A stretch of 32,000 nt of DNA, taken from Xylanibacter ruminicola 23. Its GTDB lineage: Bacteria > Bacteroidota > Bacteroidia > Bacteroidales > Bacteroidaceae. The first letter of the stretch is position 1. Every line of letters starts with the position of its first letter. Shown here piece after piece: positions 435 to 29,578 of this stretch. The position numbers and the translations under genes were made by a program. The notes under the pieces are model-generated. The model saw only the letters and a program-made list of their open reading frames with translations, ran no database searches and was not told the DNA's origin. The stretch is taken from the NCBI RefSeq assembly GCF_000025925.1, contig NC_014033.1, positions 3,450,001-3,482,000 on the forward strand, written 5' to 3'.

Positions 435-494
435 GTGAAAGTTGAGGCTACGCCTCGACATAACGTGAACGTTGAGGCATAGCCTCGACCTTCG
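435..494 (+). repeat. Two tandem 30-nt units, each an 8-bp hairpin, in the 5' leader
   Basis: The units are gtgaaagttgaggctacgcctcgacataac (435-464) and gtgaacgttgaggcatagcctcgaccttcg (465-494). In each unit gttgaggc pairs with gcctcgac across a 3-nt loop. Confidence 0.8.
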
Positions 495-496
495 CC

Positions 497-655: not shown

Positions 656-716
656 TTCGGTATTTGCTAAATGCTCTCGATGTAAGGGCGTGAGGCGCAA
701 CTTAATTTTTGTGGGT

Positions 717-12354: not shown

Positions 12355-12368
12355 AATTTTTGAATGTG

Positions 12369-12403
12369 CTTAATGTTACATTGTTGCAAAGTTACTTTGT
12401 GAC
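12369..12403. repeat. Left arm of a 35-nt inverted repeat (partner at 29658-29692); carries the DUF5675 promoter
   Basis: The reverse complement gtcacaaagtaactttgcaacaatgtaacattaag matches gtcacattgtaactttgtaacaatgtaacattaag in 32 of 35 positions. It contains the TAACTTTG -7 box (12387-12394, minus strand). Confidence 0.85.
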
Positions 12404-12414
12404 AAAGCGGAAGC

Positions 12415-12455
12415 CAATTTTTACATTTTTACATTTTTAATTTTTACATTTTTCC
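12415..12455. repeat. Tandem 8-nt A/T-tract repeats (atttttac)n; inverted partner at 30739-30766
   Basis: The units are atttttac x2, atttttaa, tttttac and atttttcc. The reverse complement of 12415-12437 matches 30744-30766 in 22 of 23 positions. The array overlaps the last codons of the 768-aa gene. Confidence 0.8.
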
Positions 12456-16088: not shown

Positions 16089-16849
16089 TATTCCTTTTTT
16101 ATTTCCTTAATTACACCAGTGCCGCCAGCCTCTATATTCTGGATCTCAGTATCCACAACCTTTGTGTTTACATATTCCTTTGGCTTTATGATAGTGGAAC
16201 TTTTTATACCAAACTTGTCATACAGGGCTATAACTTCTTTGTCATAAGCATGGTTGTGTTCGATGTTATAACGATTAATAAACAGCAGATTCCCCTTAAT
16301 GGATTCTTTGTCCATTTTGTCGGAACATGCTGCCATGTAGGCAAACAGCTGTTTGATTTCTTCCGATCCGCCGCCATCCAGCTTTATCTCTTGCAGTTCA
16401 TAGTCCAACAGATTTGTTTTCTTGCCTTCCAGCCAACGAGCATCCTCCTTATTAGTCATTTTTTCGATGAGAGGCCACATCAGTTCGTGACCGTCTAAAT
16501 GCTCGAAGATGTGGAGGATAATCTTTCGGATATCTATGTTCGCATATTTTTTGTTCAGGGCTTGCAATTGGACTGTGGCTAATACCAGGATGAGCATGGC
16601 ATCATTATCTCCCTCGGCTTCATCCTCCAAATCCTCAATCTCATATTCTAAGCCTTCGTCGATGTCTGGTAAAGCCAGTACTTCGTGGCAAAAGTTTTGG
16701 GCAGACAAGACAACTTCGGCGGGTGACAATTCTGTATGCCCATCGCGTTGCATTTGCTTTAGTGCATCTTGACTGATGATATATACCACATCAGCGAGCA
16801 GCTGATGACGGGCTGGTTTCTGTTGCTCCTTTTCTAACCTTACTATCAT
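16088..16849 (-). CDS. Hypothetical acidic protein (253 aa), second gene of a coupled operon
   Basis: It overlaps the upstream gene by 4 nt (ATGA). It has an acidic block, EIEDLEDEAEGDND. The C-terminus reads VVDTEIQNIEAGGTGVIKEI. Confidence 0.7.
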   Translation of the reverse strand: MIVRLEKEQQKPARHQLLADVVYIISQDALKQMQRDGHTELSPAEVVLSAQNFCHEVLALPDIDEGLEYEIEDLEDEAEGDNDAMLILVLATVQLQALNKKYANIDIRKIILHIFEHLDGHELMWPLIEKMTNKEDARWLEGKKTNLLDYELQEIKLDGGGSEEIKQLFAYMAACSDKMDKESIKGNLLFINRYNIEHNHAYDKEVIALYDKFGIKSSTIIKPKEYVNTKVVDTEIQNIEAGGTGVIKEIKKE

Positions 16850-17835
16850 GCAGCCTGCTCCTCATCTATAGCTTCCACCTCGTGCTTCATCGAGTTCATC
16901 AGTCCGAGCACCGCTTCTTCGGCTTTCAGACGGTCTTCTGGTTCTACCTTGCTACCGTCCTTCTTTCTTGACTTGAACAAAATTTCCAGATGATTCTCGT
17001 CGAACTCATGGCTCACAATCTTATCCGTATTGTCGCCATCGTTGTCAATGAAGCATCTGAACGTGATTCCATCGGTAGTTATCAGTTCCACAGGCTCATC
17101 TACGGCTTCGGCAAACGTTAGCATATTGCGCATGAAAACACTATTCTTATCTACATAAAGTGCTGCCTTTCTGTCTTCTGGCATTACTGTGTAATGTCCT
17201 TTATACTTAGCTTTCTTCTGCGCATAGCACACATCCAGGATTTGCCCCATGATGGAATCATCGAAATAGTCGCGTTTCTTGGCCTTCAATGCCTCCACTT
17301 TCGCCAGAATATCCTCCTTCTCCATCTCTGGTGTTCCAAAGCGCATCTGCTGGGTATGTGCCTGTTGAAGCTCCCATATCGTGAAAAGGTCGGCGGGGTA
17401 ATAGTCGGGCAGAATCTCAAACCCATAGCAATGATCCAAGAATAGTCGCTTGTCTATGACCTGTGACAGAATCTTTGCCACCTTATGCGTGTCGCTGAAA
17501 GCCTTCCTTCGCTTCTGGATGGCCACGGTACGCATGTTGTTGCGATTGTCGATAATGACAAAACACGATGGCTCGTCCTTGGCCATAGCGGGTTCAAAGT
17601 CGCGCTCCACGGGTATATCAATATTATTTGCAAAGCGCATCACCGTGATACTTGGTGCTATGCTCAAATGATACACCTTGTGTTTATATACCTTGCGGTC
17701 GGAATCTTCTCCTAAACAAAACTCGATGCTCTCATTATTTTCAAAGAGCGCATCCAAATGCTGTTGACGCAGCTGCCAGTCGTAGCAGCCTGCAGCGTAC
17801 TTGTATTTACAGTAATATTGTGCGAATTTAGACAT
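16846..17835 (-). CDS. Hypothetical protein (329 aa), first gene of a coupled operon
   Basis: A long intact ORF. The start is set at ATG 17835 (MSKFAQYY), since the track start at 17859 is a TTG. No family was recognised. Confidence 0.7.
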   Translation of the reverse strand: MSKFAQYYCKYKYAAGCYDWQLRQQHLDALFENNESIEFCLGEDSDRKVYKHKVYHLSIAPSITVMRFANNIDIPVERDFEPAMAKDEPSCFVIIDNRNNMRTVAIQKRRKAFSDTHKVAKILSQVIDKRLFLDHCYGFEILPDYYPADLFTIWELQQAHTQQMRFGTPEMEKEDILAKVEALKAKKRDYFDDSIMGQILDVCYAQKKAKYKGHYTVMPEDRKAALYVDKNSVFMRNMLTFAEAVDEPVELITTDGITFRCFIDNDGDNTDKIVSHEFDENHLEILFKSRKKDGSKVEPEDRLKAEEAVLGLMNSMKHEVEAIDEEQAA

Positions 17836-18099
17836 TGGTTTATTAATTTGTGCTGTCAAATCTCACACGAAGGCAGATTACCCCCGTGCGTGTGAATATA
17901 TAAATATTGTTAGTTACAGCATTGCTAATATCGCTCTCAGATTTTGTGTCAGTATTTAATGTTCTTATTAAACTCTGTCAGGTTGATGCTTGGCCGATAA
18001 TGCAATACAGTCGATTTAGCGTGGTTGTATATGTCCACGTTTGAGTGATATCCTAAATTGTAATTCTTCATAATTTTTTAAACAGTTTTTAATTGGCTA

Positions 18100-18195
18100 C
18101 AAAGTTACAAAAAAACCTTGTAACAGCAAAGCGATTTTGGAAGATTAACGCAATTCGGCCTGAAATAAAGGCAAAGAGGGGAAAAATGAAGAAGT
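18100..18195. repeat. Left copy of the 96-nt direct repeat bracketing the AT-rich island (partner at 28017-28112)
   Basis: The first 62 nt are identical to the partner, and 91 of 96 match overall by hand alignment. It contains a minus-strand -7 box (TAACTTTG, 18100-18107) and the hairpin gttacaa-aaaaacc-ttgtaac. Confidence 0.9.
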
Positions 18196-18668: not shown

Positions 18669-19580
18669 ATGGCAAAGAACCTATTAAACAAGTACGTCTG
18701 GTTGGTGGAAACCATTTACAAAGCCAAAAGGATCTCTTTTGAGGAGATCAACCATCGTTGGCTCGATAATGATATAAGCGAGGACAAACCGTTGTCAATT
18801 AGGACTTTCCACAAATGGCGTATCGCTATCGAAGAGATGTTTGGTCTCATCATTGAGAATGAACAGGGTGGTCAGTATCGCTACTATATCCAGAATGCTG
18901 AAGAACTGAGAAGTGGCTCGATGCGCAGCTGGCTTTTCAACACGCTGACTGTCAGTAATCTGATGCTGGATAGCGTCAGCATCAAGGATAAGGTGTTGTT
19001 CGAAGAAATCCCTGATGGCGAGCAGTATCTCCCTGATATTCTTGAAGCCCTGAAGAAGAATCTGGTACTTGGAATGACTTATCAGAGTTTTACCCGTGAC
19101 GAGGCCAATACTTTCGAAATTGAGCCTTATTGTCTGAGGGCTTTTAAACAACGCTGGTACTTGGTGGCGCGTAGTCCCTATTATAATAAGATCATGATTT
19201 ACGCTTTGGATAGGGTTCAATGGCTGGGATTAACCGAAAAGACTTTCAAATACCCCAAGGATTTTATTCCTGTAGAATTCTTTGATGATTGTTTTGGCAT
19301 CATTGCTGACCAAAACGTCAGCATAGAGACTGTCAAGTTCAAGGTCTCCACAGGACAGGCAAATTATCTTCGCAGTTTGAGATTGCATCAATCACAGCAT
19401 GAGATTGAACGGACAGATGAATATAGCATCTTTACTGTCAGGCTTCGCCCTACCTTCGATTTCCGTCAGGAGATTCTCTCGCAAGGTTGTGACATCGAAG
19501 TATTGGAGCCCAAATGGTTCCGTGATGAGGTGGCAGAGATTTCAAAACACATGTGGAACAAATACAAGGATGACAAATGA
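18669..19580 (+). CDS. WYL-domain transcriptional regulator (wHTH-WYL-WCX, BrxR/CapW-like architecture)
   Basis: The central segment FKQRWYLVARS is the WYL signature. An N-terminal wHTH-like region is present. The ~300-aa length is typical. The start is set at ATG 18669. Confidence 0.8.
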   Translation: MAKNLLNKYVWLVETIYKAKRISFEEINHRWLDNDISEDKPLSIRTFHKWRIAIEEMFGLIIENEQGGQYRYYIQNAEELRSGSMRSWLFNTLTVSNLMLDSVSIKDKVLFEEIPDGEQYLPDILEALKKNLVLGMTYQSFTRDEANTFEIEPYCLRAFKQRWYLVARSPYYNKIMIYALDRVQWLGLTEKTFKYPKDFIPVEFFDDCFGIIADQNVSIETVKFKVSTGQANYLRSLRLHQSQHEIERTDEYSIFTVRLRPTFDFRQEILSQGCDIEVLEPKWFRDEVAEISKHMWNKYKDDK

Positions 19581-20068
19581 GAGACTTTGCAGCAATAGAT
19601 TTTGAGACAGCAAACAACGAGCGTACCAGTGTTTGTTCCGTTGGTGTGGTCATCGTCAGAAATGGCGAGATAGTAGACACCTTCTACTCTCTGATTCAGC
19701 CAGAGCCCAATTATTATAATTATTGGTGCAGCCAAGTGCATGGGCTTTCTCGTGAGGACACTGAGGACGCTCCTGTATTCCCAGAGGTTTGGAAGCAGAT
19801 AGAACCACTTATTGATGGCTTGCCCTTAGTGGCCCATAACAAAAGCTTTGATGAGAGTTGCCTGAAAGCCGTATTCCGTTGCTATCAGATGGATTATCCG
19901 GATTATCCGTTCTACTGCACATGTGTGGCTTCTCGCAAGGCTTTTCCACAATTACCCAACCATCAATTGCATACGGTTTCAGAATACTGTGGTTATCACC
20001 TCGAAAACCACCATCATGCCCTCGCAGATGCTGAGGCTTGTGCCTGGATAGCAAGGGAGATTCTGTAA
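19577..20068 (+). CDS. DEDDh 3'-5' exonuclease (DnaQ/epsilon-like)
   Basis: The Exo I motif is AIDFETAN, Exo II is VAHNKSFDESCL and Exo III is HHALADAEA. Its start overlaps the WYL gene stop (ATGA). Confidence 0.85.
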   Translation: MRDFAAIDFETANNERTSVCSVGVVIVRNGEIVDTFYSLIQPEPNYYNYWCSQVHGLSREDTEDAPVFPEVWKQIEPLIDGLPLVAHNKSFDESCLKAVFRCYQMDYPDYPFYCTCVASRKAFPQLPNHQLHTVSEYCGYHLENHHHALADAEACAWIAREIL

Positions 20069-20168: not shown

Positions 20169-20193
20169 CAGAATGGTTTTATCAGATAGCAAA

Positions 20194-21165
20194 ATGGACG
20201 AGAACAAGATTGTAATATATCAGACGGAAGACGGACAGACACAGATTGATGTCCGCTTGGAGAATGAGACGGTATGGTTGACGCAGGCTCAGATGGCGGA
20301 ACTATTTCAGAAAGATCAGTCTGTTATAGCTCGTCATATTAACAATGCTTTGAAGGAGGGTGAACTTGAAGAAAATAGTAATATGCATTTTTTGCATAAT
20401 ACTCAATACAAGTATCGTCCAACAAAGATTTACGACCTTGATACCATTATCTGTGTTGGCTACCGTGTTCATAGTAAACGTGGTGCTGCATTTCGTATCT
20501 GGGCACGCAAGATTATCAAGGATTATCTTGTGAAAGGCTATGCTGTAAACCAGCGCATTCATAGTGAGCAGATTGGAGAGTTGCGTCAGTTGGTAGGTAT
20601 GCTTGGGCGTACCCTGCAAAACCAACCTGTTATCTCTACTGATGAAACTGCAGCTTTGTTCGAAGTGGTTACAGATTATACTTATGCACTTGATACACTC
20701 GATAACTACGACTACGAGCGACTCGCCATCGATAAGACCACAAAAGAAGAGCCTTTCCACGCTACTTACGAAAATGCGATGGAAGCCATCAGTGGCTTGC
20801 GAGAGAAATTTGGTGGCTCAACTCTCTTTGGTAACGAGAAAGATGATTCTTTCAAGAGTAGTATTGGCCAGATCTATCAGACTTTTGGAGGTGAGGAACT
20901 CTATCCAAGTGTTGAGGAGAAAGCAGCCATGTTGCTATATCTGGTAACGAAGAACCACTCCTTTAGTGATGGCAACAAGCGTATTGCTGCCACGTTATTC
21001 CTCTGGTTTCTGAACAATAACCACATCCTGTATCGCAAAGACGGTTCAAAACGTCTGGCTGATAACACCCTCGTTGCTCTTACGTTGATGATTGCAGAGA
21101 GCAAGACGGAGGAGAAGGACGTGATGGTAAAAGTCGTGGTTAATTTAATTAATCAGAAGAACTAA
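20194..21165 (+). CDS. RhuM-family N-terminal domain fused to a Fic/Doc domain
   Basis: The N-terminal pattern IVIYQTEDGQTQIDVRLENETVWLTQAQMAELF...VGYRV.S.RG..FR.WA is RhuM-like. The C-terminal HSFSDGNKRIAATLFL matches the Fic/Doc motif HxFx(D/E)GN(G/K)R. Confidence 0.8.
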   Translation: MDENKIVIYQTEDGQTQIDVRLENETVWLTQAQMAELFQKDQSVIARHINNALKEGELEENSNMHFLHNTQYKYRPTKIYDLDTIICVGYRVHSKRGAAFRIWARKIIKDYLVKGYAVNQRIHSEQIGELRQLVGMLGRTLQNQPVISTDETAALFEVVTDYTYALDTLDNYDYERLAIDKTTKEEPFHATYENAMEAISGLREKFGGSTLFGNEKDDSFKSSIGQIYQTFGGEELYPSVEEKAAMLLYLVTKNHSFSDGNKRIAATLFLWFLNNNHILYRKDGSKRLADNTLVALTLMIAESKTEEKDVMVKVVVNLINQKN

Positions 21166-21261: not shown

Positions 21262-21300
21262 AGGTGTGCCTCAATACGGCGCACCTTTCTTGTATCTTTG
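21262..21300 (+). promoter_or_regulatory. Hairpin-plus-promoter cassette junction
   Basis: The hairpin pairs aggtgtgcc (21262-21270) with ggcgcacct (21278-21286). It is followed by ttcttg and the -7 box TATCTTTG (21293-21300). Confidence 0.6.
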
Positions 21301-21327: not shown

Positions 21328-21723
21328 ATGACAGTATCAGAATTATTTAAGAAGTATGACTTTGAAAGCCTACTACCGCATTTAAATCACCTCTTTATGG
21401 TGAATAGTGGGCGGCATTTCTCTGAAGCGAGTATTGAGGTGTTCAGAGGTCTTTATAAAAAATGGACCGAGTGCGAAACAAAACCTACGAATCGCCATAT
21501 CCGACTTGTATCTCGTTGGGAGCATACAAGTCCTTCCATTGATATGAATTGTCATGTTAAAGAGAAGAATGTTTTTTGCTACGCAGTAGCAGACCAGAAA
21601 GATATGATTGAAGTACTGGGCATGAAAGTGAGAGTAGATAAAGACGTTGAAATCAGCGAGGTGGAGTTGGCAGCTGGTCTCTTTTGGGAAATGACCTATT
21701 ATGGTCCTAAAGAAAATGGATAG
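21328..21723 (+). CDS. Hypothetical protein (131 aa), paralogous to the N-terminal domain of the 25486..26532 product
   Basis: ELFKKYDFESLLPHLNHL matches ELLNSVTFEEVAPCLLHL. VEISEVELAAGLFWEMTYYG matches VEATNAELAACCIWHTSFYG. It may be a DUF6557-type family, which is an unverified recollection. Confidence 0.7.
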   Translation: MTVSELFKKYDFESLLPHLNHLFMVNSGRHFSEASIEVFRGLYKKWTECETKPTNRHIRLVSRWEHTSPSIDMNCHVKEKNVFCYAVADQKDMIEVLGMKVRVDKDVEISEVELAAGLFWEMTYYGPKENG

Positions 21724-21769
21724 TTATACGAAATTATGTTAATACGCTCTATTGTTCAAAATAAAGTAG

Positions 21770-21777
21770 TATCTTTG
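21770..21777 (+). promoter_or_regulatory. -7 promoter box (TATCTTTG)
   Basis: It lies inside the long track ORF 21736..22632, which argues for the ATG 21802 start. Confidence 0.5.
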
Positions 21778-21801
21778 TTGCACCTAAAAGAAATAAGGAA
21801 T

Positions 21802-22632
21802 ATGATTAACGGATTTAAGGTTATAACCCTCTGCGGTAGCACTCGCTTCAAGGAAGAATTCTTGGAAGCACAAAAGCGTCTGACACTTGAAGGCAACATC
21901 GTTATTTCTGTGGGGCTGTTTGGCCATTCTGGTGACGATGTGGTATGGACAGAGGGAGTGAAGGATATGTTAGATCGCCAGCATCTGGCAAAGATTGACT
22001 TGGCTGATGAAATCTTTGTCATCAATGTGGGTGGTTATATTGGCGATAGCACCAGACGCGAAATCGCATATGCAGAATTCAAAGGCAAGACAATTAAATA
22101 TATGGAAAATAGTAAGAAAACAAACATCTATGAGAATTACGCTGCATTGCGCGAACTTCATGATGCAGGAAGAATCTCTGATGATGATTTTGAACAGGCG
22201 GGACGAGACTTTGACGAAAAGCGTAAAACTGCTATAGCTGAGTATAACGCATGCCAAGGTCCCTGGCCCTATCAGTGGAAAAACATAGATACTGTTGTCT
22301 GTGGAGTTTTGCAGCAGATGGACGTTGTCTCTATTGACTATTCAGACCTCAAAGATCTCTATGATGCTGATAGCGTATATGAAGTTCGCATTAAAGGAAA
22401 AGGAGCCAATGATGAAGAACAACTTCAAAACATCATTGACACAATCAGAAGTGAATACATGGCCAAACTACGTTCCCCAAGGAAGGCTGTTGTAACGTTA
22501 TGTGCTTCGTCTAATCCTTCTGGCTTACTTGAAAAACTTGCCGACTGCATGGATGGCCTGAATGTAGTTTGGCAGACAAGAACTCTCCATACAGATACAA
22601 AAGAAATAGAATTGTCAATATTATTTGTATAA
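21802..22632 (+). CDS. Nucleoside 2-deoxyribosyltransferase-like (NDT/Rcl-fold) N-terminal domain fused to an unknown ~170-aa C-terminal domain
   Basis: The N-terminal pattern is KVITLCGSTRF...LTLEGNIVIS...HLAKIDLADEIFVINVGGYIGDSTRREIAYAEFKGKTI. It resembles a phage/actinobacterial NDT-like family (GS.RF ... H..KI..AD...V.N..GY.G.ST..EI.YA...GK). This is from memory. Confidence 0.45.
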   Translation: MINGFKVITLCGSTRFKEEFLEAQKRLTLEGNIVISVGLFGHSGDDVVWTEGVKDMLDRQHLAKIDLADEIFVINVGGYIGDSTRREIAYAEFKGKTIKYMENSKKTNIYENYAALRELHDAGRISDDDFEQAGRDFDEKRKTAIAEYNACQGPWPYQWKNIDTVVCGVLQQMDVVSIDYSDLKDLYDADSVYEVRIKGKGANDEEQLQNIIDTIRSEYMAKLRSPRKAVVTLCASSNPSGLLEKLADCMDGLNVVWQTRTLHTDTKEIELSILFV

Positions 22633-22636
22633 GTAT

Positions 22637-22996
22637 ATGGAATTGTTAGAACAAAAGATAAATGAACTAATAGGACGGTTAGAGGCATTACATAAGAATC
22701 CCAATCCTGATTTTGATAGATTAAGGGAAAAAGTTGATGCTATAGAGTATGACTATTCCAAGTTAGAAGAAGAATATTATGAGTTGAGGGAAGGAGAAGA
22801 GGCATTACTTCTTCCTATAGAGTATATCGAAGACCGTCTTCAGTATGCAAATGCATTAATCTTTAGGATCTGCGATGAAAACGGATTGGAATACGCTGAT
22901 TATAATGAATATGATGGCGGAATAATTAGGGTGCCTTTGGAAGATAAGGAAGAGAATAGTTCTTTGCAATATCTGCCGATGGATAATATAGAATAA
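22637..22996 (+). CDS. Small acidic coiled-coil-like hypothetical protein (119 aa)
   Basis: ATG 22637 lies 4 nt after the upstream stop. The protein is Glu/Asp-rich (EEEYYELREGEEALL). No family was recognised. Confidence 0.6.
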   Translation: MELLEQKINELIGRLEALHKNPNPDFDRLREKVDAIEYDYSKLEEEYYELREGEEALLLPIEYIEDRLQYANALIFRICDENGLEYADYNEYDGGIIRVPLEDKEENSSLQYLPMDNIE

Positions 22997-23035
22997 GCGT
23001 GATTGTATATTTTTTATGGATATAATTGGAAAAAT

Positions 23036-24214
23036 ATGAGTGGAGAAGAATACAAAAAATGGGTTAACGAAGCATATTTATATATTAGTAAAAAGGAGGT
23101 ATATGATAGAGTAAACCAACTTAAGTATGTCAATGTAGGTTCTACTCAGTACATTCCCAAAATTGACGGAAATGTAGAATTCGTATTTCTTGGTCATGAT
23201 GCCCATGAAGGGAGAGGCGATAACGACAAATTGGATATTACCTTTGCGAAAGAAAGATTTTATAAAGGTAATGGTGATCCAAGAATTTGGCGTAAATGCC
23301 CTGAATGGAAAATATGGAATAATATGGAACGCGCTTTATGGAGAGTTGGTTTTGCTGAGATAATGGATGATAAATATATCTCAGATGAAATACTGAAGAA
23401 TACGATAGTAACCAATGCTTTGTTTTTTACTTATGCGAATGACAGCGAAAAAGCGCTCGCAAAAAAACTCAATACTCTCTTGGGACCAGATATTGTTAAT
23501 GAGTGTATGAAACGTACAGGGGAGCTTATTTTTGAGGTAATAAAACCCAAAATGGTAATATGCTCTTCTTGTTCTATGGTTTTTGAGCCTCTTATAAAGA
23601 ACTATAATGCAGATATTAGGTATGAGGTTATCCGTTTGGAAGGAACAAGTAGAAGAGTTATGAGATGTAATTATAATGGTGTTACCGTGCTAGGAATACC
23701 ACATACAAGTTATCCTGTTCCATTACCTGTGGCAGCATTTGTTCGAGACTCATATTTGGGGAAAGATAATGGATATACAATGTCAAATGTATCTTATGCG
23801 TCTTCTATTAATCCCATGCATCTTCGTGCTAAGGCACTAAAAAAAATGATTAGTAAAAATTGGGCGGTACAAAGTATTTACTATAATATACTTTACCACG
23901 AATATTATTCTACAAAAGTAGATGGAAAATATGTAAATAGCAAAGACAATATTGTTATTGATTTGACTCCTGAAGAAGACAAGAATCAATATGTGGTACT
24001 TGTATTCACACGTCAGAATGACATTGAAAAGACAAGAGATTTAATAAAAGGCATTTGGCCATATGAAAAATTCAATCCATGGGTATGCGACAAATCGCGC
24101 CATGTTCATGAGGTGATTTCTTTCGAAGAAAGCAATGAGGAGATTAAAAACAAGATGGAGAAAGTGCTACAAGAAGTGAAGGCATATCGTGACAAAGAGT
24201 ATCCTCTGAAATAA
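23036..24214 (+). CDS. Hypothetical protein (392 aa); N-terminal ~260 aa possibly uracil-DNA-glycosylase-superfamily fold
   Basis: The motifs VEFVFLGHDAHEG, IVTNALFF, IKPKMVICSSCSMVFEPL and VTVLGIPHTSYP occur in the order and approximate spacing of UDG-family motifs (GEAPG / TN.VK / P..I..LG / HPS). The motif A residues are atypical. Confidence 0.3.
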   Translation: MSGEEYKKWVNEAYLYISKKEVYDRVNQLKYVNVGSTQYIPKIDGNVEFVFLGHDAHEGRGDNDKLDITFAKERFYKGNGDPRIWRKCPEWKIWNNMERALWRVGFAEIMDDKYISDEILKNTIVTNALFFTYANDSEKALAKKLNTLLGPDIVNECMKRTGELIFEVIKPKMVICSSCSMVFEPLIKNYNADIRYEVIRLEGTSRRVMRCNYNGVTVLGIPHTSYPVPLPVAAFVRDSYLGKDNGYTMSNVSYASSINPMHLRAKALKKMISKNWAVQSIYYNILYHEYYSTKVDGKYVNSKDNIVIDLTPEEDKNQYVVLVFTRQNDIEKTRDLIKGIWPYEKFNPWVCDKSRHVHEVISFEESNEEIKNKMEKVLQEVKAYRDKEYPLK

Positions 24215-24238: not shown

Positions 24239-24278
24239 AACCTCTGCCCTAAAACGGCATTGGGTTCTATTATCTTTG
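24239..24278 (+). promoter_or_regulatory. Intergenic repeat class 2, copy 1 (degenerate hairpin plus TATCTTTG promoter)
   Basis: aacctctgccctaaaacggcattgggttctattatctttg is the counterpart of 25035-25074. The -7 box is at 24271-24278. Confidence 0.65.
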
Positions 24279-24308: not shown

Positions 24309-24962
24309 ATGGAGAATGAAAAAAAACGATTTTCAAGTGAGATAAAAGTGATAGACGAATTATTTCCAAAGGGAAAAGTCTCAATTCTGGCATCTGGTCC
24401 CGGTGTGGGCAAAACAATATTTGCTTGCAAAATAGCCAAGTGGTTAACTTATCACAGGGAACGCGTTCTTTATGTCAATATGGCGTCTGACCATATAAAT
24501 ATAGACACTTCGGATGACGATACTATTCCATGGAAATGTAGCTTATTAGACATGCCTCTTCTTTCAATAGAGGATATATCGTTTGTATTGTCAAGAAGAT
24601 ATACTTTTGACACCATTATTCTCGACTACATAGAATTGATGTATTTTGTCAAAGGTATAGAATGCTTGAAAAGGAAAGAAGAACTAAATGCTATTTGGCA
24701 TTTTCTTGACCATATTGCAAAAGAAAAGAACATTCGTGTAATAGGATTGTCCCAGTTGGAACGAGGCCGTATAGATGGAACAGAAGAGTCTTGTTTCGAT
24801 AAAGTGCTGAAATACTTAAACAGGGATTTTGTTAGGGAAAGACTTGTCGTTTTACATCGCCCTAGTTATTATGAGCCACAAGATAATAATACTGAGCAAG
24901 TACAATTAATAACGTTTAAGAATGGAATAAAAAAGGAAAACATATTAGAAAATACAAAATAG
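24309..24962 (+). CDS. DnaB-helicase C-terminal (RecA-fold) domain-only ATPase
   Basis: The Walker A motif is ILASGPGVGKTIFACKIA and the Walker B-like motif is TIILDYIELM. VIGLSQLERG matches the DnaB (A)LSQL(S/N)R motif, and VVLHRPSYYEP matches DnaB ..YRD.YY. There is no DnaB N-terminal domain, and the SDLRESG-type motif is not evident. Confidence 0.65.
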   Translation: MENEKKRFSSEIKVIDELFPKGKVSILASGPGVGKTIFACKIAKWLTYHRERVLYVNMASDHINIDTSDDDTIPWKCSLLDMPLLSIEDISFVLSRRYTFDTIILDYIELMYFVKGIECLKRKEELNAIWHFLDHIAKEKNIRVIGLSQLERGRIDGTEESCFDKVLKYLNRDFVRERLVVLHRPSYYEPQDNNTEQVQLITFKNGIKKENILENTK

Positions 24963-25034: not shown

Positions 25035-25074
25035 AACCTCTGCCCCAAAACGGCAGGGGTTTCTTTTATCTTTG
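25035..25074 (+). promoter_or_regulatory. Intergenic repeat class 2, copy 2 (10-bp terminator hairpin plus TATCTTTG promoter)
   Basis: aacctctgcc (25035-25044) pairs with ggcaggggtt (25052-25061). It is followed by tcttt and the -7 box at 25067-25074. Confidence 0.7.
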
Positions 25075-25082
25075 CACCATAA

Positions 25083-25493
25083 ATGAAAAATAGTATGAAC
25101 TCGAACAGAAATTCCAGAAGAAAAGATTGTCTTATAATGGTGTTGACAATCGTTATTATTACCCTCGTCGCTATCGTTTTATGTGGTTCATTAATGAGGG
25201 TACTTGAAGGACGCTTGCTATTTCAACTATTTGTTGCAGTATTGTTAAGTGTTTCCGCTACCGGTATAATAACGACTCTGTTATTATACTCACAGCGTAT
25301 ACAACATGAGGAATGGGTAAGAGCACAAATGGTGTTTTTAGAGGAACAAATCAGAGACCAACGGCTTTTTGAGTCAAAGCAAAAGCAGAAAGAAAAAGAA
25401 AGGCTTTGGGGATTTTTAAGAAAACTATGTGATATGGTTAAAGACCAGAAGATCTTACCTGAATACATCTACAAGGAATTATATAATGAATAA
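25083..25493 (+). CDS. Small membrane protein (two predicted TM helices plus a charged coiled C-terminal tail)
   Basis: The hydrophobic segments are LIMVLTIVIITLVAIVLCGSL and LFQLFVAVLLSVSATGIITTLLLY. The tail is Lys/Glu-rich (ESKQKQKEKERLW). Confidence 0.65.
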   Translation: MKNSMNSNRNSRRKDCLIMVLTIVIITLVAIVLCGSLMRVLEGRLLFQLFVAVLLSVSATGIITTLLLYSQRIQHEEWVRAQMVFLEEQIRDQRLFESKQKQKEKERLWGFLRKLCDMVKDQKILPEYIYKELYNE

Positions 25494-26532
25494 AGATATA
25501 AGAACAATTATGACTTTCAAAGAATTATTAAACAGCGTTACATTTGAGGAGGTGGCTCCCTGTCTTTTGCATTTGCATCCAGATGCAGAGGGTAATTTGA
25601 AATGGTATAAGATTCATTTCGATATGTTGCGTCAGATGACACCCAAGCATCATGATGATGCAAATAGTGATGTGTGCAATATCACAATGGAAAAGTGGAG
25701 GGAAGGTAAGATGATTCTCGATGCTCATCCAATGGAGGGTGATTTGTGGGAGCATTCACTAACAAAAGAAATCATTCTCGCTCCTGATGTTGAAGCTACA
25801 AATGCTGAATTAGCAGCTTGTTGCATCTGGCATACCTCATTCTATGGCTTTGTGGATAAGCAGGCACAGGAATGCTTAAGGTTTGACGAGGATGATTTAG
25901 ATATCAAAGACAGGTGGGACGACTCTATCTATAATAAGGTAAAAGCAATGCGGTATTTCTCCATCATTCGCAGAAATGGTGGCCATGTTCCTACTTTGAA
26001 AGAATTGCCGCAATCAAAGAAAAAGGAATTGATTAAGCAATCTAAAGAATATTTCTGGTGTATCAGTGAATCGATGAACAATACTAAAAAGAAGAGGATG
26101 TTCCGAAGAGAATTTATGGGCTACTACTACGAGCGTATGGCAGCTATCAGCAGGTTTATCGTTCAGGCAATTCCGGCATTGGGTGACGAAAGAAATAATA
26201 TGAGTATTGAACAACTCTGTGGTTTGTTTAAGTCAGACCTATTTAGCCCAGAAACAATCACATCGTATGCTGATGAGCATACGAATGGGGCAAAGTATTT
26301 CTGCGATTTACTGGAGATGGAAGATATCAATACCAGATTAGATAGAATGGTAGTGGTTCTAACAACAGGAGAATATCATAAAGAACTGACGGAAGACGAA
26401 CAACGCTTATGCAAGCTTCTTATTGGCAATTGTAAATCAAGCAACATCCTCTTGGCTACAGACCCCTCATTAGGCAGACAAGTCCGTATCGACTATGCTA
26501 CGTTTAATTTAAAATATCCATTAGTAAAATAA
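25486..26532 (+). CDS. Hypothetical protein (348 aa); the N-terminal ~120 aa are paralogous to the 21328..21723 product
   Basis: ATG 25486 overlaps the upstream stop by 8 nt. The shared motifs are listed under 21328..21723. The C-terminal ~230 aa are unrecognised. Confidence 0.65.
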   Translation: MNKDIRTIMTFKELLNSVTFEEVAPCLLHLHPDAEGNLKWYKIHFDMLRQMTPKHHDDANSDVCNITMEKWREGKMILDAHPMEGDLWEHSLTKEIILAPDVEATNAELAACCIWHTSFYGFVDKQAQECLRFDEDDLDIKDRWDDSIYNKVKAMRYFSIIRRNGGHVPTLKELPQSKKKELIKQSKEYFWCISESMNNTKKKRMFRREFMGYYYERMAAISRFIVQAIPALGDERNNMSIEQLCGLFKSDLFSPETITSYADEHTNGAKYFCDLLEMEDINTRLDRMVVVLTTGEYHKELTEDEQRLCKLLIGNCKSSNILLATDPSLGRQVRIDYATFNLKYPLVK

Positions 26533-26533
26533 T

Positions 26534-26836
26534 ATGGGAAAAAGGAAAGTGAGAAATGATGACTATATTAATAGTTTTCCAATAAGTGAGGTCTGGGGGA
26601 CTTATCACTATTTGGCACGAGAGATTGCTCCTCGATTGAAAGCTTTCAAGGCTCTTGATAAACATGGATGGCCAGAAGATTTCGAGAGCCAGGAGGATTG
26701 GAATAAGGCTATTCAGAAGATGATTGATGCTTTTGATTTGGTGAAGTACTATTCTCCGTCTTATGAAGAAGATATACGGATTGTTGAACAAGGGGTGGAA
26801 TTGTTCTGCAAGTATTATCGTGATTTGTCGGATTAA
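26534..26836 (+). CDS. Hypothetical protein (100 aa), tandem paralog A
   Basis: It starts 1 nt after the upstream stop. It shares FPI.EVW....YLA..IA.RLKAFKALDKHG....F....EWNKAIQKMIDAF.L........E.....E.G.ELFCK.YR.L.D with the next gene. Confidence 0.7.
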   Translation: MGKRKVRNDDYINSFPISEVWGTYHYLAREIAPRLKAFKALDKHGWPEDFESQEDWNKAIQKMIDAFDLVKYYSPSYEEDIRIVEQGVELFCKYYRDLSD

Positions 26837-26851
26837 CAATATTGATTCTAT

Positions 26852-27166
26852 ATGAAAAGGAAGAAGAAAGATGACTCCGCTGAGAACTGGAGTTACAAGA
26901 ATGACTTTCCAATAGAGGAAGTCTGGAACACAGACAATTATTTGGCTGGGGTGATTGCTGCTAGATTAAAAGCATTCAAAGCTCTCGACAAGCATGGCTA
27001 TTGTCCTGCGTTTAAGGGAATGGCAGAATGGAACAAGGCCATTCAGAAGATGATTGATGCATTCGAGTTACTGAAGCATATAACAACATTCAGTGAAGAA
27101 GAAGAAAAGACCATTGAGGAAGGACTTGAATTGTTCTGCAAGCATTATCGAAATTTATGGGATTAA
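26852..27166 (+). CDS. Hypothetical protein (104 aa), tandem paralog B
   Basis: See 26534..26836. RLKAFKALDKHG and NKAIQKMIDAF are identical in both copies. Confidence 0.7.
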   Translation: MKRKKKDDSAENWSYKNDFPIEEVWNTDNYLAGVIAARLKAFKALDKHGYCPAFKGMAEWNKAIQKMIDAFELLKHITTFSEEEEKTIEEGLELFCKHYRNLWD

Positions 27167-27807
27167 CTAATCGTGTTATTATGGACAACAATGTAGATGT
27201 TATAGAGAGGGAGATCTTTCTAAAATATAATGATTATCGCTGTTATAACTCTGATAATGATGTGCTTTTGTCCCTACGAAAAGGCATCATCAACAAGCAG
27301 ATTCTGGCAAATCAAAAAGAGCTATTACCTGATATTATCGCCTTTAATGATGCACTGCGTGAGGCACTTCGTGACATGTACGATCGAGCTCATCGTATCT
27401 GGGATAAGATGATAAACATCATAGATGAGGGTGATGGCGAAGAGATGGAGCTTACTGCTAAAATATATCTCGACACAGACTATCCGGCTTTGCATCCTAT
27501 ACAAGGTGATGATAGGCAGGATTTGTGGTACGCACTGTGTGATGATGATCTGAATCCTATGTATGCTGATGGCATTTCTGTGCTGACTCTGACATTCCCC
27601 AGGGATGAGGGCTATACTTTTGATACGTTCATAGGTATGGATTGCCCTCCACCTAATTGGAATGAAGGTCTTGACCCTGAGTTGACAAAGGACTTGCACC
27701 TCATCAGCCAATTCCACAATCTCTTTCAGCATATGTTGTTTGCCATTACTGATTTCATCTATGTAAGGAAGTTCAAGACGGAGATTAATATTGAAATTAT
27801 ACAGTAA
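27157..27807 (+). CDS. Hypothetical protein (216 aa; alternative start ATG 27181)
   Basis: It is the last ORF of the five-gene operon. It overlaps the upstream gene by 10 nt if the start is 27157. No family was recognised. Confidence 0.6.
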   Translation: MGLTNRVIMDNNVDVIEREIFLKYNDYRCYNSDNDVLLSLRKGIINKQILANQKELLPDIIAFNDALREALRDMYDRAHRIWDKMINIIDEGDGEEMELTAKIYLDTDYPALHPIQGDDRQDLWYALCDDDLNPMYADGISVLTLTFPRDEGYTFDTFIGMDCPPPNWNEGLDPELTKDLHLISQFHNLFQHMLFAITDFIYVRKFKTEINIEIIQ

Positions 27808-27846
27808 ATAAACAATAAATGTTTTTGGTAATTTAAAAGAAATGAT

Positions 27847-27854
27847 TACCTTTG
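27847..27854 (+). promoter_or_regulatory. Orphan -7 promoter box (TACCTTTG) with no ORF downstream
   Basis: It faces the minus-strand -7 box of the right direct repeat (28017-28024) across ~160 nt of ORF-free DNA. Confidence 0.45.
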
Positions 27855-28016
27855 CACACGAAGTTGAGTCATGAAATGGCTGGTGACCCATCTTCGGGTG
27901 CTCATTGAAAGCAATTTATAGCAGAACGTGGAATTGAGAACGGTCTCCAATCCGTAACCCAGAAAATCCTCAAATCCCCAGACTGCCTCTATTTAAAGAA
28001 ATCCTGCAAATTCTTG

Positions 28017-28112
28017 CAAAGTTACAAAAAAACCTTGTAACAGCAAAGCGATTTTGGAAGATTAACGCAATTCGGCCTAAAATAAAGGCAAGACGGGGAA
28101 GAATGAAGAAGT
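28017..28112. repeat. Right copy of the 96-nt direct repeat bracketing the AT-rich island
   Basis: See 18100-18195. It carries the same minus-strand TAACTTTG box (28017-24) and the same hairpin. Confidence 0.9.
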
Positions 28113-28369: not shown

Positions 28370-29578
28370 ATGGCAACAGACAAACAGAAACTACAGATGA
28401 GTGAAGATTTTGACTCTTTGGTCAGACGTATACAGAACACGAGCGATGTCCTGCAACAAGACGCTCGATTGGTCATCAATCGGAATGTCACCACACGTGC
28501 GTGGCTGACAGGTTTTTATATTGTGGAATACGAACAGCACGGAAAGGATCGTGCAAAGTATGGCGATAAACTGCTAAAACGTTTGGCTGAACAATTAGAT
28601 GACAAAAGCTTCAGCCTTGCCAGTCTGAAGAATTATAGGCAATTCTATCTTTATTATCCTGAGATAGCACGACCTATAGCAGACTATTTACAGCATAAGA
28701 CACAAAAAAGCCAATCACTGATTAGCCTTTTTCAACAGATAGGAAATCAGAGACTTATAAAAAGCCAATCACTGATTAGCCTTTCTGATGGATTACAATC
28801 AGATATTGTTTCTGAGGATGGATTTGCTATTAAAGCGGCAAATGGGAATGTGATGGCTGCTCCTGATATGGTATTTAATAGATTATCTTTCACACATATA
28901 GCGCAGTTGATACACTTGAATGACCCTCAGAAACGAGCATTTTATGCCATCGAAGCCATGCGTGGACCATGGAGTGTGAGAGAACTTCAGCGGCAGATAG
29001 ACAGCAATTACTACGAACGTAGCGGGTGGAGTAAGAAACCAGAACTGTTGGCAAGCAAAGTCAATGACAAAATAGAGAGACCTACTTTCAGAGGAGAACT
29101 GAAATCGCATTATGTATTTGAGTTTTTAGGGCTATACGCAAAAGATACTATCGAGGAAGATGTATTGGAGCAAAGCCTCATTGACCATCTGGAAGAATTC
29201 TTGTTAGAGCTGGGCATGGGATTCTGTTTGGAGGCACGACAGAAGAAACTGCTTATCGACGATCGTTACTTCAAGGCAGACTTGGTGTTTTACCACAGGA
29301 TATTGAAATGTCACTGTATCGTGGAATTGAAAGGGCATCGTTTGGATTATGCGGATGTTGCTCAGTTGAATATGTATATAGAGTATTATCGCAAGAACTA
29401 TATGCAACCTGAAGACAATCCCCCTGTAGGTCTGCTCCTCTGCACAGAGTACGGACAAGAAATGGTTGAATACTTATCACCATTCGTGGATCCTCAGTTG
29501 TTTGTAGCACAATACGAACTTCAACTGCCCAGCAAGGAGAAGATGAAGGAATTCCTGTTGAGAGAAAACAGAGGATAA
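28370..29578 (+). CDS. DUF1016/YhcG-family PDDEXK nuclease-domain protein
   Basis: The N-terminal region has the YhcG-type pattern RAWLTGFYIVEYEQHG. LSFTHIAQLIHLNDPQKRAFYAIEAMRGPWSVRELQRQI is present. The C-terminal D...E.K nuclease core reads DLVFYHRILKCHCIVELK. Confidence 0.8.
   Translation: MATDKQKLQMSEDFDSLVRRIQNTSDVLQQDARLVINRNVTTRAWLTGFYIVEYEQHGKDRAKYGDKLLKRLAEQLDDKSFSLASLKNYRQFYLYYPEIARPIADYLQHKTQKSQSLISLFQQIGNQRLIKSQSLISLSDGLQSDIVSEDGFAIKAANGNVMAAPDMVFNRLSFTHIAQLIHLNDPQKRAFYAIEAMRGPWSVRELQRQIDSNYYERSGWSKKPELLASKVNDKIERPTFRGELKSHYVFEFLGLYAKDTIEEDVLEQSLIDHLEEFLLELGMGFCLEARQKKLLIDDRYFKADLVFYHRILKCHCIVELKGHRLDYADVAQLNMYIEYYRKNYMQPEDNPPVGLLLCTEYGQEMVEYLSPFVDPQLFVAQYELQLPSKEKMKEFLLRENRG
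28705..28784 (+). repeat. In-frame 26-nt perfect direct repeat inside the DUF1016 gene (28705-28730 and 28759-28784)
   Basis: aaaaagccaatcactgattagccttt occurs twice, 54 nt apart. This gives KSQSLISL twice in the protein. Confidence 0.85.

What the first reader, a model, noticed from the sequence alone, without database searches (positions are those of the whole stretch)
25083..27807. Five-gene translationally coupled operon led by a small two-TM protein, all products unrecognised
One promoter (25067-25074) precedes five ORFs joined by an 8-nt overlap, a 1-nt gap, a 15-nt gap and a 10-nt overlap.
1. A 136-aa two-TM protein with a Lys/Glu-rich tail.
2. A 348-aa protein.
3. The first tandem paralog (100 aa).
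4. The second tandem paralog (104 aa).
5. A 216-aa protein.

The tight coupling implies a functional unit. Small duplicated proteins behind a membrane protein could be immunity or antitoxin-like components, or a membrane-effector module. Nothing matches a family I can name.
Basis: partly seen in the sequence, partly recalled or inferred. Interest (0 to 1): 0.65.

Follow-up and report, generated by a model that had tools for sequence, protein, structure and literature searches.

The report
Unknown gene set in Prevotella defence island
The five tightly packed genes are real, conserved and match no protein of known function; they form the last transcription unit of a 9.9-kb inserted island, headed by a DNA-damage-sensing type of regulator, that looks like an anti-phage defence island of rumen Prevotella.

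Summary
The five ORFs exist as described and are under purifying selection (dN/dS 0.03-0.25). A hairpin terminator (25035-25061) and a Bacteroidetes -7 box (25067-25074) precede them.

They are not a self-contained system. They are the 3' unit of a 9.9-kb island flanked by 96-nt direct repeats; a metagenome contig carries the empty site. A wHTH-WYL-WCX regulator and a DEDDh exonuclease head the island. Its neighbours match PADLOC defence candidates: RhuM/Fic = PDC-S23, YhcG = PDC-S02.

Across 70 species-level genomes, genes 2-5 recur together in similar WYL-led mosaic arrays:
- the long DUF6557 protein (gene 2);
- the ~100-aa paralogues (genes 3 and 4);
- the 216-aa protein (gene 5).

Gene 1 is a clade-specific truncation of a 390-476-aa two-TM protein.

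The 216-aa protein folds confidently (pLDDT 88) with no structural relative in PDB or BFVD. The C-terminal domain of gene 2 resembles the FtsZ C-terminal domain (hhalign 74-89%).

Best reading, at 0.45: a new, damage- or infection-induced candidate defence module. Its mechanism is unknown.

The parts
18100..18195 (.). Left copy of the 96-nt direct repeat bounding the island
   Evidence: 95% identical to 28017-28112, spacing 9917 nt. A 25-nt core has 0 matches expected by chance. Metagenome contig L085 carries left flank + one repeat + right flank, i.e. the empty site.
18669..19580 (+). WYL + WCX transcription regulator heading the island (303 aa from the ATG at 18669; listed ORF starts at TTG 18645)
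   Evidence: Pfam WYL 3.7e-14 and WCX 1.6e-11. PADLOC WYL 7e-30. -7 box TATCTTTG at 18640. The family is present in 46 of 70 related genome loci.
19577..20068 (+). DEDDh 3'-5' exonuclease, overlapping the regulator gene by 4 nt
   Evidence: Pfam RNase_T 4.4e-21. PADLOC PDC-S48 3.5e-31 and DEDDh 2.5e-27. Follows WYL in 27 of 70 loci.
20173..21165 (+). RhuM/Fic protein, its own transcription unit; its position varies in related arrays
   Evidence: Pfam Virulence_RhuM 4.3e-16 and Fic 1.5e-11. PADLOC PDC-S23 9.3e-137. -7 box at 20161. Sits after the ORF5 homologue in L004, L006 and L008.
21328..24214 (+). Second unknown unit: small DUF6557 protein (21328-21723), then 298-aa, 123-aa and 403-aa proteins
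   Evidence: DUF6557 6.4e-07; no family for the other three. Hairpin plus -7 box at 21293. Conserved in L001-L010.
24309..24962 (+). DnaB C-terminal-domain-like (RecA-fold) ATPase of 217 aa, its own unit, optional in relatives
   Evidence: Pfam DnaB_C 1.6e-14. -7 box at 24271. This family lies within three genes of the long DUF6557 gene for 19 of 70 such genes.
25035..25074 (+). Junction element: terminator-like hairpin + T-run (25035-25061) abutting the -7 box TATCTTTG (25067-25074)
   Evidence: The same junction recurs before units in related arrays: 57 copies of TATCTTTGCA on the array strand against 15 on the other, 30 with a hairpin. The stem is supported by covariation: 94.9% of cells paired, GC<->CG swaps at 3 pairs.
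25095..25493 (+). Gene 1: 132-aa (136 aa from 25083) two-TM protein with a charged helical tail; a truncated derivative of a larger protein
   Evidence: Hydropathy. 45% identical to residues 61-178 of a 390-aa protein at the same position in L013, L028 and L034, and weakly similar to a 476-aa one in L071. dN/dS 0.24. SLATT not supported.
25510..26532 (+). Gene 2: 340-aa (348 aa from 25486) long DUF6557 protein: N-terminal DUF6557 domain, basic helix, C-terminal alpha/beta domain
   Evidence: Pfam DUF6557 7.7e-10. 271 representatives among 1.84 billion proteins. AF2 N-domain pLDDT 70-95, the rest below 50. No PDB match by fold or sequence. C-terminal domain equals the stand-alone c14 family (hhalign 97%) and resembles the FtsZ C-terminal domain (Prob 74-89%, controls <=1.7%). 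dN/dS 0.09-0.15.
26534..26836 (+). Gene 3: first 100-aa paralogue
   Evidence: 56% identical to gene 4. Family found in 35 loci, usually just after the long DUF6557 gene. phrog_11543 2e-05. dN/dS 0.06-0.27.
26852..27166 (+). Gene 4: second paralogue, 104 aa
   Evidence: phrog_11543 3.8e-10, a family of unknown function. Its 90%-identity cluster has 664 members. No PDB or PADLOC relative. dN/dS 0.03-0.13.
27157..27807 (+). Gene 5: 216-aa protein, conserved partner of gene 2, with a fold that has no known relative
   Evidence: 1430 clusters at E<=1e-3. AF2 pLDDT 88.2, pTM 0.87. Foldseek best E 1.2 in PDB and 3.0 in BFVD. Fused to a metallophosphoesterase in P0519 and P0529. dN/dS 0.04-0.11.
27808..28016 (+). 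Conserved 209-nt non-coding right end of the island, with a further -7-like box TACCTTTG at 27847
   Evidence: 100% identical in L009 and L017, although sequence beyond about 28030 differs there and the L017 ORF5 homologue is only 72% identical. Not significantly structured as RNA (z = -0.9).
28017..28112 (.). Right copy of the 96-nt direct repeat
28370..29578 (+). YhcG-type PD-(D/E)XK nuclease just outside the island
   Evidence: Pfam YhcG_C 7.1e-43 and DUF1016_N 6.7e-25. PADLOC PDC-S02 7.8e-110. In L085 a different 7.1-kb cargo sits next to it.

Best explanation
The five genes are the last transcription unit of a 9.9-kb mobile-type island of rumen Prevotella that works as an anti-phage defence island under a CapW/BrxR-type regulator. 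They are an undescribed candidate defence module.

Shown:
- The island is a discrete insertion between 96-nt direct repeats.
- It is organised as five units, each behind the same -7 box.
- It is headed by a WYL+WCX regulator and a DEDDh exonuclease.
- It is surrounded by, and in relatives intermixed with, families that PADLOC lists as defence genes or defence candidates.
- The long DUF6557 protein, the ~100-aa protein and the 216-aa protein recur as a set across distant Bacteroidales.

Inferred:
- The WYL repressor holds the units off until single-stranded DNA appears during phage infection or DNA damage, as shown for CapW.
- The conserved trio has no invariant catalytic-looking residues. It may act as a sensor/adaptor complex, possibly binding nucleic acid through the basic helix of gene 2.
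- That complex may work with interchangeable enzymatic or membrane partners: the two-TM protein, a metallophosphoesterase fused to the gene-5 family, a DnaB_C-like ATPase, or DnaE fragments.
- The outcome would be arrest of phage replication or of the infected cell.
- In this window the two-TM partner is truncated to 132 aa.
For: Island and regulation:
- Direct repeats and empty site.
- Conserved right end joined to three different flanks.
- Five identical TATCTTTGCA boxes at 18640, 20161, 21293, 24271 and 25067.
- WYL+WCX regulator. CapW of this architecture releases DNA on binding ssDNA (PMC11662680).

Defence context:
- In the window: RhuM/Fic = PDC-S23 (9e-137), YhcG = PDC-S02 (8e-110), exonuclease = PDC-S48.
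- In related arrays: PLD nuclease (DrmC-like), GmrSD_N/HEC-06, PDDEXK_4/PDC-S26, IetA-like AAA, ShosA-like DprA, Nmad3.
- 54 of 70 loci hold at least one such family.
- PDC families were defined by embedding in BREX, DISARM or RM systems (10.1101/2024.01.29.577857).

The module itself:
- Co-occurrence of the gene 2, 3/4 and 5 families.
- Fusion of the gene-5 family to a metallophosphoesterase directly after a DUF6557 gene.
- P0498 joins a gene-2 C-terminal domain to a gene-5 domain.
- Purifying selection on all five genes.
- Rare in phage and plasmid collections.
Against: - None of the five proteins matches any PADLOC, NCBIfam or characterised Pfam family.
- The defence assignment rests on context alone. 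The neighbouring PDC families are themselves untested candidates.
- No phage-challenge, expression or toxicity data exist.
- No effector domain is recognisable within the five genes, and gene 1 is truncated.
- The arrays also hold domains of replication and division proteins (DnaA, DnaB, DnaE, FtsZ). These fit a damage-response or mobile-element reading at least as well.
- The N-terminal HTH of the regulator was not detected by Pfam, and its operator is unknown.
Confidence: 0.45

Rival explanations
1. A damage-inducible (SOS-like) module rather than immunity. The WYL regulator responds to DNA damage and switches on repair or tolerance functions and a cell-division inhibitor. Gene 2, with its FtsZ-C-terminal-like domain, would bind FtsZ and delay division. 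Genes 3-5 would modulate it.
For: - WYL regulators control DNA-damage responses, including a division inhibitor, in Acinetobacter (PMC13010146).
- The gene-2 C-terminal domain resembles the FtsZ C-terminal domain: Prob 74-89% against <=1.7% for 12 controls. The only PDB hits of the stand-alone c14 form are FtsZ chains.
- The arrays hold a DEDDh exonuclease, DnaE fragments and RecA-fold ATPases.
Against: - A core stress response would not be a strain-variable, repeat-flanked insertion with an empty site, nor mosaic gene content.
- The arrays are mixed with restriction-type nucleases and PADLOC defence candidates.
- The FtsZ similarity is sub-threshold against PDB (E 0.13), and the combined profile does not recover FtsZ.
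- The AF2 model of that domain is low confidence.
Confidence: 0.15
2. Accessory cargo of a mobile element that serves the element itself: replication or maintenance functions, or anti-defence genes expressed on entry. Not host immunity.
For: - Repeat-flanked insertion with a conserved end found in several contexts.
- Replication-type domains in the arrays: DnaB_C, DnaE, DnaA ATPase, exonuclease.
- One relative lies on a Segatella copri extrachromosomal replicon and three on IMG/VR contigs.
- Several relatives lie on short contigs binned with unrelated taxa, which suggests mobility.
Against: - No integrase, relaxase, conjugation, capsid or packaging gene in the island or the window.
- The replication-type genes are single domains or fragments, optional and shuffled. 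They are not a conserved replicon module.
- Near absence from 50,697 phage and 72,556 plasmid records.
Confidence: 0.15
3. One reading: orphan immunity or antitoxin genes, like the acquired interbacterial defence arrays of Bacteroidales, or a toxin-antitoxin-type addiction module. The small tandem paralogues would be the neutralising proteins.
For: - Small, non-enzymatic, tandemly duplicated proteins.
- Arrays with conserved intergenic promoter elements, reminiscent of what I recall of recombinase-associated AID clusters.
- A Tn-seq study in B. uniformis found orientation-biased insertions in a WYL gene, interpreted as toxicity of downstream genes (10.1101/2025.10.10.681549).
Against: - No tyrosine recombinase, no polymorphic-toxin or T6SS domain and no known toxin or antitoxin family in the five genes or their neighbours.
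- The paralogue is single in many relatives.
- The neighbours are DNA/RNA enzymes, not immunity proteins.
Confidence: 0.08

Closest known systems
CapW/BrxR-regulated defence loci (wHTH-WYL-WCX repressor upstream of CBASS, BREX and other systems)
   Same: A WYL+WCX regulator gene heads a co-directional set of genes that includes defence-associated families. Expected logic: repression relieved by ssDNA (PMC11662680).
   Different: Here the regulator heads a mosaic of about five separately promoted units, not one defined system. None of the five genes under study belongs to a known system. Regulation and operator are untested.
PADLOC 'phage defence candidates' (PDC-S02, S05, S23, S26, S48) and defence islands in general
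   Same: The flanking genes of the window are strong members of PDC-S23, PDC-S02 and PDC-S48. The locus is a variable hotspot with alternative cargo.
   Different: The five genes have no PADLOC model. The only hits were HEC-01B at 7e-4 for one paralogue, not reproduced in 13 relatives, and a single NsnA hit at 2e-3.
Pfam DUF6557 (PF20194)
   Same: The N-terminal 120 residues of gene 2 and the 131-aa protein at 21328-21723 pass the family threshold.
   Different: The family is uncharacterised, and the paper library holds no mention of it. This work adds the C-terminal domain, the partners and the genomic setting.
FtsZ/tubulin C-terminal domain
   Same: Profile-profile similarity of the gene-2 C-terminal domain and of its stand-alone relatives to FtsZ residues ~213-326, in the same order of strands and helices. 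FtsZ GTPase-only genes occur in the same arrays.
   Different: No GTPase domain in gene 2. Similarity is below conventional significance against PDB. No structural confirmation.
Recombinase-associated acquired interbacterial defence (rAID) arrays and integron cassette arrays
   Same: Arrays of short units separated by a conserved junction element carrying a promoter.
   Different: No recombinase or integrase and no attC/attI-type sites identified. Contents are nucleic-acid enzymes and unknowns, not immunity genes. The comparison rests partly on my memory of the rAID literature.

Membership tests
Pfam DUF6557 (PF20194) | Score above the Pfam gathering threshold (27.8 bits) | tested here: met
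   Gene 2: 39.9 bits, residues 11-132. The 21328-21723 protein: 30.5 bits. 27 of 36 distant relatives also match.
SLATT two-TM effector domain | Significant match to a SLATT model, reproduced in homologues | tested here: not met
   Gene 1 gives NCBIfam SLATT_4 E 0.01, 15.7 bits against a cut-off of 55. Three homologues (157, 390 and 476 aa) give no hit. No Pfam SLATT hit.
PADLOC HEC-01 (component B) | Match of the paralogue family to the HEC-01B model | tested here: not met
   Only gene 3 hits (E 7e-4). 1 of 14 family members hits.
CapW/BrxR-type regulated defence locus | Regulator with WYL and WCX domains at the head of the locus | tested here: met
   WYL 3.7e-14 and WCX 1.6e-11. The regulator family is present in 46 of 70 related loci.
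CapW/BrxR-type regulated defence locus | N-terminal winged HTH, and repression relieved by ssDNA or DNA damage | not testable with these tools
   No HTH family reported by Pfam. Needs a structure model, EMSA and reporter assays.
CapW/BrxR-type regulated defence locus | Downstream genes confer phage resistance | not testable with these tools
   Only guilt by association with PADLOC families.
FtsZ/tubulin C-terminal domain | Significant sequence or structure similarity to the FtsZ C-terminal domain | tested here: inconclusive
   hhalign against two full-length FtsZ paralogues: c14 84% (E 7.6e-6), gene-2 C-terminal domain 73.8% (E 2.9e-5), combined profile 89.4%; 12 controls <=1.7%. c14 against PDB hits only FtsZ, at E 0.13. 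The combined profile against PDB gives no FtsZ. AF2 confidence is low for this region.
Type II toxin-antitoxin or polymorphic-toxin immunity array (AID/rAID) | Recognisable toxin or immunity family; an associated recombinase for rAID | tested here: not met
   No such family among the island's proteins, and no integrase or recombinase among the 30 window ORFs scanned.
Prophage, satellite or integrative element | Integrase plus structural, packaging or transfer genes; att-type repeats | tested here: inconclusive
   Direct repeats and an empty site are present, but no integrase or structural genes. Rare in viral collections.

The most novel reading that the evidence does not exclude
The WYL-led arrays are a hitherto undescribed kind of defence island. 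It would be built largely from isolated or truncated domains of essential replication and division proteins: DnaA ATPase, DnaB C-terminal domain, DnaE palm/fingers, FtsZ GTPase domain and FtsZ C-terminal domain. These would be kept silent by the WYL repressor. On infection they would be released to act as dominant-negative poisons or decoys of the host or phage replication and division machinery. In this reading gene 2 (DUF6557 + FtsZ-C-like domain), with genes 3-5, caps or sequesters FtsZ or a phage tubulin. The conserved hairpin-promoter junction is the recombination handle by which cassettes are shuffled between arrays.
Probability: 0.15. Interest if true: 0.85.

Novelty: new variant of a known kind. 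Interest (0 to 1): 0.6.

Why it matters
Rumen and gut Prevotellaceae are abundant, phage-rich and poorly covered by current defence catalogues. The gene-5 family alone has over 1,400 sequence clusters in public data, and one relative cluster has over 4,000 members. Yet it has no annotation and a confidently predicted fold without any known relative.

If the module defends against phages, it adds a new system type and a new protein fold to bacterial immunity. It would also define a recognisable array architecture for finding further systems in Bacteroidales: a WYL regulator, a DEDDh exonuclease and cassettes separated by a conserved hairpin-promoter junction.

The possible FtsZ-like domain, and the many single-domain copies of replication and division proteins in these arrays, give a concrete hypothesis that can be tested directly: immunity by dominant-negative or decoy fragments.

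Tried and rejected
- SLATT pore-forming domain for gene 1. Rejected: a weak hit in gene 1 only.
- HEC-01B for the paralogues. Rejected: 1 of 14 members.
- Homology between gene 5 and the neighbouring DnaB_C-like ATPase. My iterated HMM had merged them; hhalign probability is 2%. The merge arose from drift, and from metallophosphoesterase fusions linking unrelated ORFs.
- Structural matches for gene 2. The Foldseek search found nothing, but two thirds of that model are low confidence.
- Profile searches of genes 2, 3/4 and 5 against PDB sequences: nothing credible.
- Phage origin. tblastn against 50,697 phage records gave one weak hit for gene 2 and none for genes 4 and 5. Only 3 IMG/VR loci.
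- Plasmid origin: one weak hit.
- Literature on DUF6557/PF20194: none.
- A par-to-gene-5 fusion suggested by P0499 is only a remnant of a paralogue 3' end in front of the gene.
- Singleton fusions of DUF6557 to IF3 and to LRR were not pursued and may be gene-calling artefacts.
- c45, first suspected to be FtsA next to FtsZ, is a group II intron reverse transcriptase.
- The 160 nt after the -7-like box at 27847 are not significantly structured.
- The first attempt at a genome scan with the 32-sequence alignment failed for lack of a conserved stretch. A 12-sequence alignment worked.


Full report
**1. The observation**

- ORF3 and ORF4 are paralogues (56% identity).
- ORF1 has two hydrophobic spans and a Lys/Glu-rich tail.
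- TATCTTTG at 25067-25074 fits the Bacteroidetes -7 consensus TAnnTTTG (consensus from my own knowledge). A 10-bp hairpin plus T-run at 25035-25061 precedes it and terminates the upstream gene.
- No comparable terminator lies inside the five genes.

Homologues suggest shorter products. ORF1 is probably 132 aa from 25095, and ORF2 340 aa from 25510. The first junction is then a 16-nt gap rather than an overlap.

All five genes evolve under purifying selection: dN/dS is 0.03-0.25 against orthologues of 55-97% identity. They are genuine genes.

The host is a Prevotella. The exact proteins occur on a 3,619,559-bp NCBI contig. From memory, that is the genome size of P. ruminicola 23.

**2. The unit belongs to a larger island**

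G+C drops from about 0.5 to 0.33-0.44 between about 18 and 30 kb.

A 96-nt direct repeat (95% identical) lies at 18100-18195 and 28017-28112. Rumen metagenome contig L085 has the left flank, one repeat copy and the right flank joined directly. That is the empty site. The island is therefore a 9.9-kb insertion.

Its right-hand 209 nt (27808-28016) are 100% identical in L009 and L017. There the sequence beyond about 28030 differs, and the L017 ORF5 homologue is only 72% identical. So there is a conserved end joined to at least three different flanks.

No integrase was found among the 30 larger window ORFs scanned.

Inside the island, five copies of TATCTTTGCA (18640, 20161, 21293, 24271, 25067) each precede a unit:
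- WYL regulator and exonuclease;
- RhuM/Fic;
- small DUF6557 protein, then 298-, 123- and 403-aa proteins;
- DnaB_C-like ATPase;
- the five genes.

**3. Context in other genomes**

Ten contigs carrying the exact ORF4 protein show the same array, with optional or relocated parts.

A scan of one genome per species returned 70 loci. They are almost all Prevotellaceae or other Bacteroidales from rumen and gut.

I called ORFs, clustered them and mapped the families. Counts for the 70 long DUF6557 genes found among all 80 loci then held (L001-L080):

| Family | Long DUF6557 genes (of 70) |
|---|---|
| ORF5 family within three genes | 36 |
| Paralogue family within three genes | 30 |
| DnaB_C-like ATPase within three genes | 19 |
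| WYL regulator in the same locus | 48 |

- In distant loci the order is ORF5 family, long DUF6557, paralogue. In the window's clade it is long DUF6557, paralogue, paralogue, ORF5 family.
- In L002 and L003 a DnaE-fragment gene and a further hairpin-promoter junction separate gene 2 from genes 3-5.
- ORF1 has relatives only in the close clade. It aligns to residues 61-178 of a 390-aa protein at the same position in L013, L028 and L034. It is a truncated derivative of that protein.

**4. What the arrays contain**

| Family in window or related arrays | Match |
|---|---|
| RhuM/Fic (window) | PADLOC PDC-S23, 9e-137 |
| YhcG (window) | PADLOC PDC-S02, 8e-110 |
| Exonuclease (window) | PADLOC PDC-S48 / DEDDh |
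| PLD nuclease | DrmC-like |
| GmrSD_N | HEC-06-like |
| PDDEXK_4 | PDC-S26 |
| AAA ATPase | IetA-like |
| DprA | ShosA-like, 4e-61 |
| Nmad3 | Pfam |
| HAD_SAK_2 | Pfam |

Fifty-four of the 70 genome loci (L011-L080) contain at least one of these families.

PDC families were proposed because they are embedded in BREX, DISARM or RM systems. wHTH-WYL-WCX repressors such as CapW sense ssDNA and de-repress immune operons.

The locus itself is a hotspot. L085 carries a different 7.1-kb cargo, including an Hsp70-like protein with TPR repeats and a helicase-like protein, next to YhcG.

Together this makes a defence island the best-supported setting.

**5. The five proteins**

None matches a characterised family in Pfam, NCBIfam, PADLOC or PHROGs.
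- Gene 2 matches DUF6557.
- The paralogues match phrog_11543, a family of unknown function.

*Gene 2.* It has 271 representatives in 1.84 billion proteins. Conservation is low, with no catalytic-looking invariant residues. AlphaFold2 gives a confident N-terminal domain but not the rest. Fold and sequence searches against PDB found nothing.
- Its C-terminal domain equals a stand-alone 140-160-aa family (c14) found in the same arrays (hhalign 97%).
- c14 resembles the FtsZ C-terminal domain: Prob 84%, E 7.6e-6 over FtsZ 213-321.
- The gene-2 domain alone gives 74%. Twelve control families give <=1.7%.
- The only PDB hits of c14 are FtsZ chains, at E 0.13.
- A combined profile does not recover FtsZ from PDB.

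I rate this homology as likely but unproven.

*Gene 5.* It folds with pLDDT 88 and pTM 0.87 on a 45-sequence alignment. It has no structural neighbour in PDB or BFVD. In some relatives it is fused to an N-terminal metallophosphoesterase, directly after a DUF6557 gene.

*Genes 3 and 4.* No relative in PDB or PADLOC. Sequence conservation suggests three helices, but this was not predicted with any tool.

**6. Mechanism**

Shown:
- a discrete inserted island;
- a shared promoter motif;
- a WYL+WCX regulator at its head;
- defence-candidate neighbours;
- a conserved trio of gene families.

Inferred:
- de-repression by ssDNA on infection or damage;
- the trio acting as a non-enzymatic sensor/adaptor that works with interchangeable partners (two-TM protein, metallophosphoesterase, RecA-fold ATPase, DnaE fragment) to stop phage or cell.

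I put this at 0.45.

Rivals:
- A damage-response module with an FtsZ-directed division inhibitor, by analogy with the WYL regulator DdaA and the inhibitor AciT: 0.15.
- Mobile-element accessory or anti-defence genes: 0.15.
No toxin, recombinase or T6SS evidence supports it.

**7. A wider pattern**

The arrays are rich in isolated domains of essential proteins:
- DnaA ATPase domain;
- DnaB C-terminal domain;
- DnaE palm/fingers;
- FtsZ GTPase domain;
- FtsZ-C-like c14;
- a full-length FtsZ paralogue.

Thirty-three of the 70 genome loci have at least one.

The units are separated by a conserved hairpin + T-run + TATCTTTGCA junction. The motif occurs 57 times on the array strand against 15 on the other. 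The stem co-varies: 94.9% of cells are paired, against 78% in shuffles, with GC<->CG swaps at three pairs. These swaps reflect essentially two stem variants, so they represent few independent events.

This suggests cassette-like shuffling and, speculatively, immunity by dominant-negative or decoy fragments.

**8. Verdict**

The module is new within the known category of defence-island cargo. Its function is unproven.

Noticed in passing
window 21267-21300, 24240-24278, 25035-25074; also L002-L004, L011-L018, L028, L034, L073: A conserved junction recurs between transcription units of the arrays in several species: a 9-bp hairpin with loop CCAAAAC, then TTTCTTT, then TATCTTTGCA. It comes in two stem versions (CCTCTGCC/GGCAGGGG and GGTGTGCC/GGCGCACC) that keep the pairing. 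It may be both terminator and promoter, and a handle for cassette exchange.
   Followed up: partly
window 18100-18195 and 28017-28112; L085 14499-14827: 96-nt direct repeats flank the 9.9-kb island, and a metagenome contig shows the empty site. The repeat carries a -7-like box (TAACTTTG) on the minus strand, facing the leftward gene 16846-17859.
   Followed up: yes
L085 7395-14499: At the same hotspot, next to YhcG, another contig carries a different 7.1-kb cargo on the opposite strand: an 802-aa Hsp70-like protein with TPR repeats, a 421-aa helicase-like P-loop protein, and 429-, 470- and 124-aa unknowns. It may be another defence system.
   Followed up: no
window 27808-28016; L009 5046-5254; L017 12325-12533: The 209-nt non-coding tail after ORF5 is 100% identical in arrays whose coding genes are only 70-80% identical. 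It ends at ...TTGCAAAGTTAC, where the flanks diverge. It could be the recombination end of the island. It contains a -7-like box (TACCTTTG, 27847) with no ORF behind it.
   Followed up: partly
related loci L012, L019, L023, L024, L029, L030, L033, L035, L039, L042, L046, L050, L073: The arrays hold single-domain copies of essential proteins: DnaA ATPase (c33), DnaB_C (c7), DnaE palm/fingers (c9), FtsZ GTPase-only (c21, ~190-210 aa), FtsZ-C-like (c14, ~140-160 aa), and a full-length FtsZ paralogue next to a 195-aa partner (c47).
   Followed up: partly
window 21328-24214: The preceding unit also starts with a DUF6557 protein (131 aa), followed by three unknowns (298, 123 and 403 aa). It may be a second module built on the same domain. 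My iterated HMM also pulled the 298-aa protein towards DUF6557, which I did not verify.
   Followed up: no
proteins in alignment A6 (representatives): One DUF6557 representative also matches IF3_N + IF3_C, and one matches leucine-rich repeats. These are single cases and possibly gene-call fusions.
   Followed up: no
window 485-669: Cobalamin riboswitch (Rfam RF00174, 78 bits) upstream of the ORF at 606-1112. Unrelated to the finding.
   Followed up: no
window 28705-28730 and 28759-28784: A perfect 26-nt direct repeat 54 nt apart inside the YhcG gene, giving a duplicated KSQSLISL peptide in an insertion that most YhcG relatives appear to lack.
   Followed up: no
window 11908-14743 (minus strand): DUF5675 and a 768-aa DUF3987-like protein (sub-threshold: 26.2 bits against a cut-off of 27) lie left of the island, followed by three unknown genes up to 17859. 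They may be remnants of another mobile element. No integrase was seen.
   Followed up: no
L012 7456-8958; L029 13475-14971; L012 9099-9896: A group II intron-type reverse transcriptase (c45) and an ADP-ribosylglycohydrolase-like protein (c46) sit inside or beside related arrays. Both were identified by eye from motifs.
   Followed up: no
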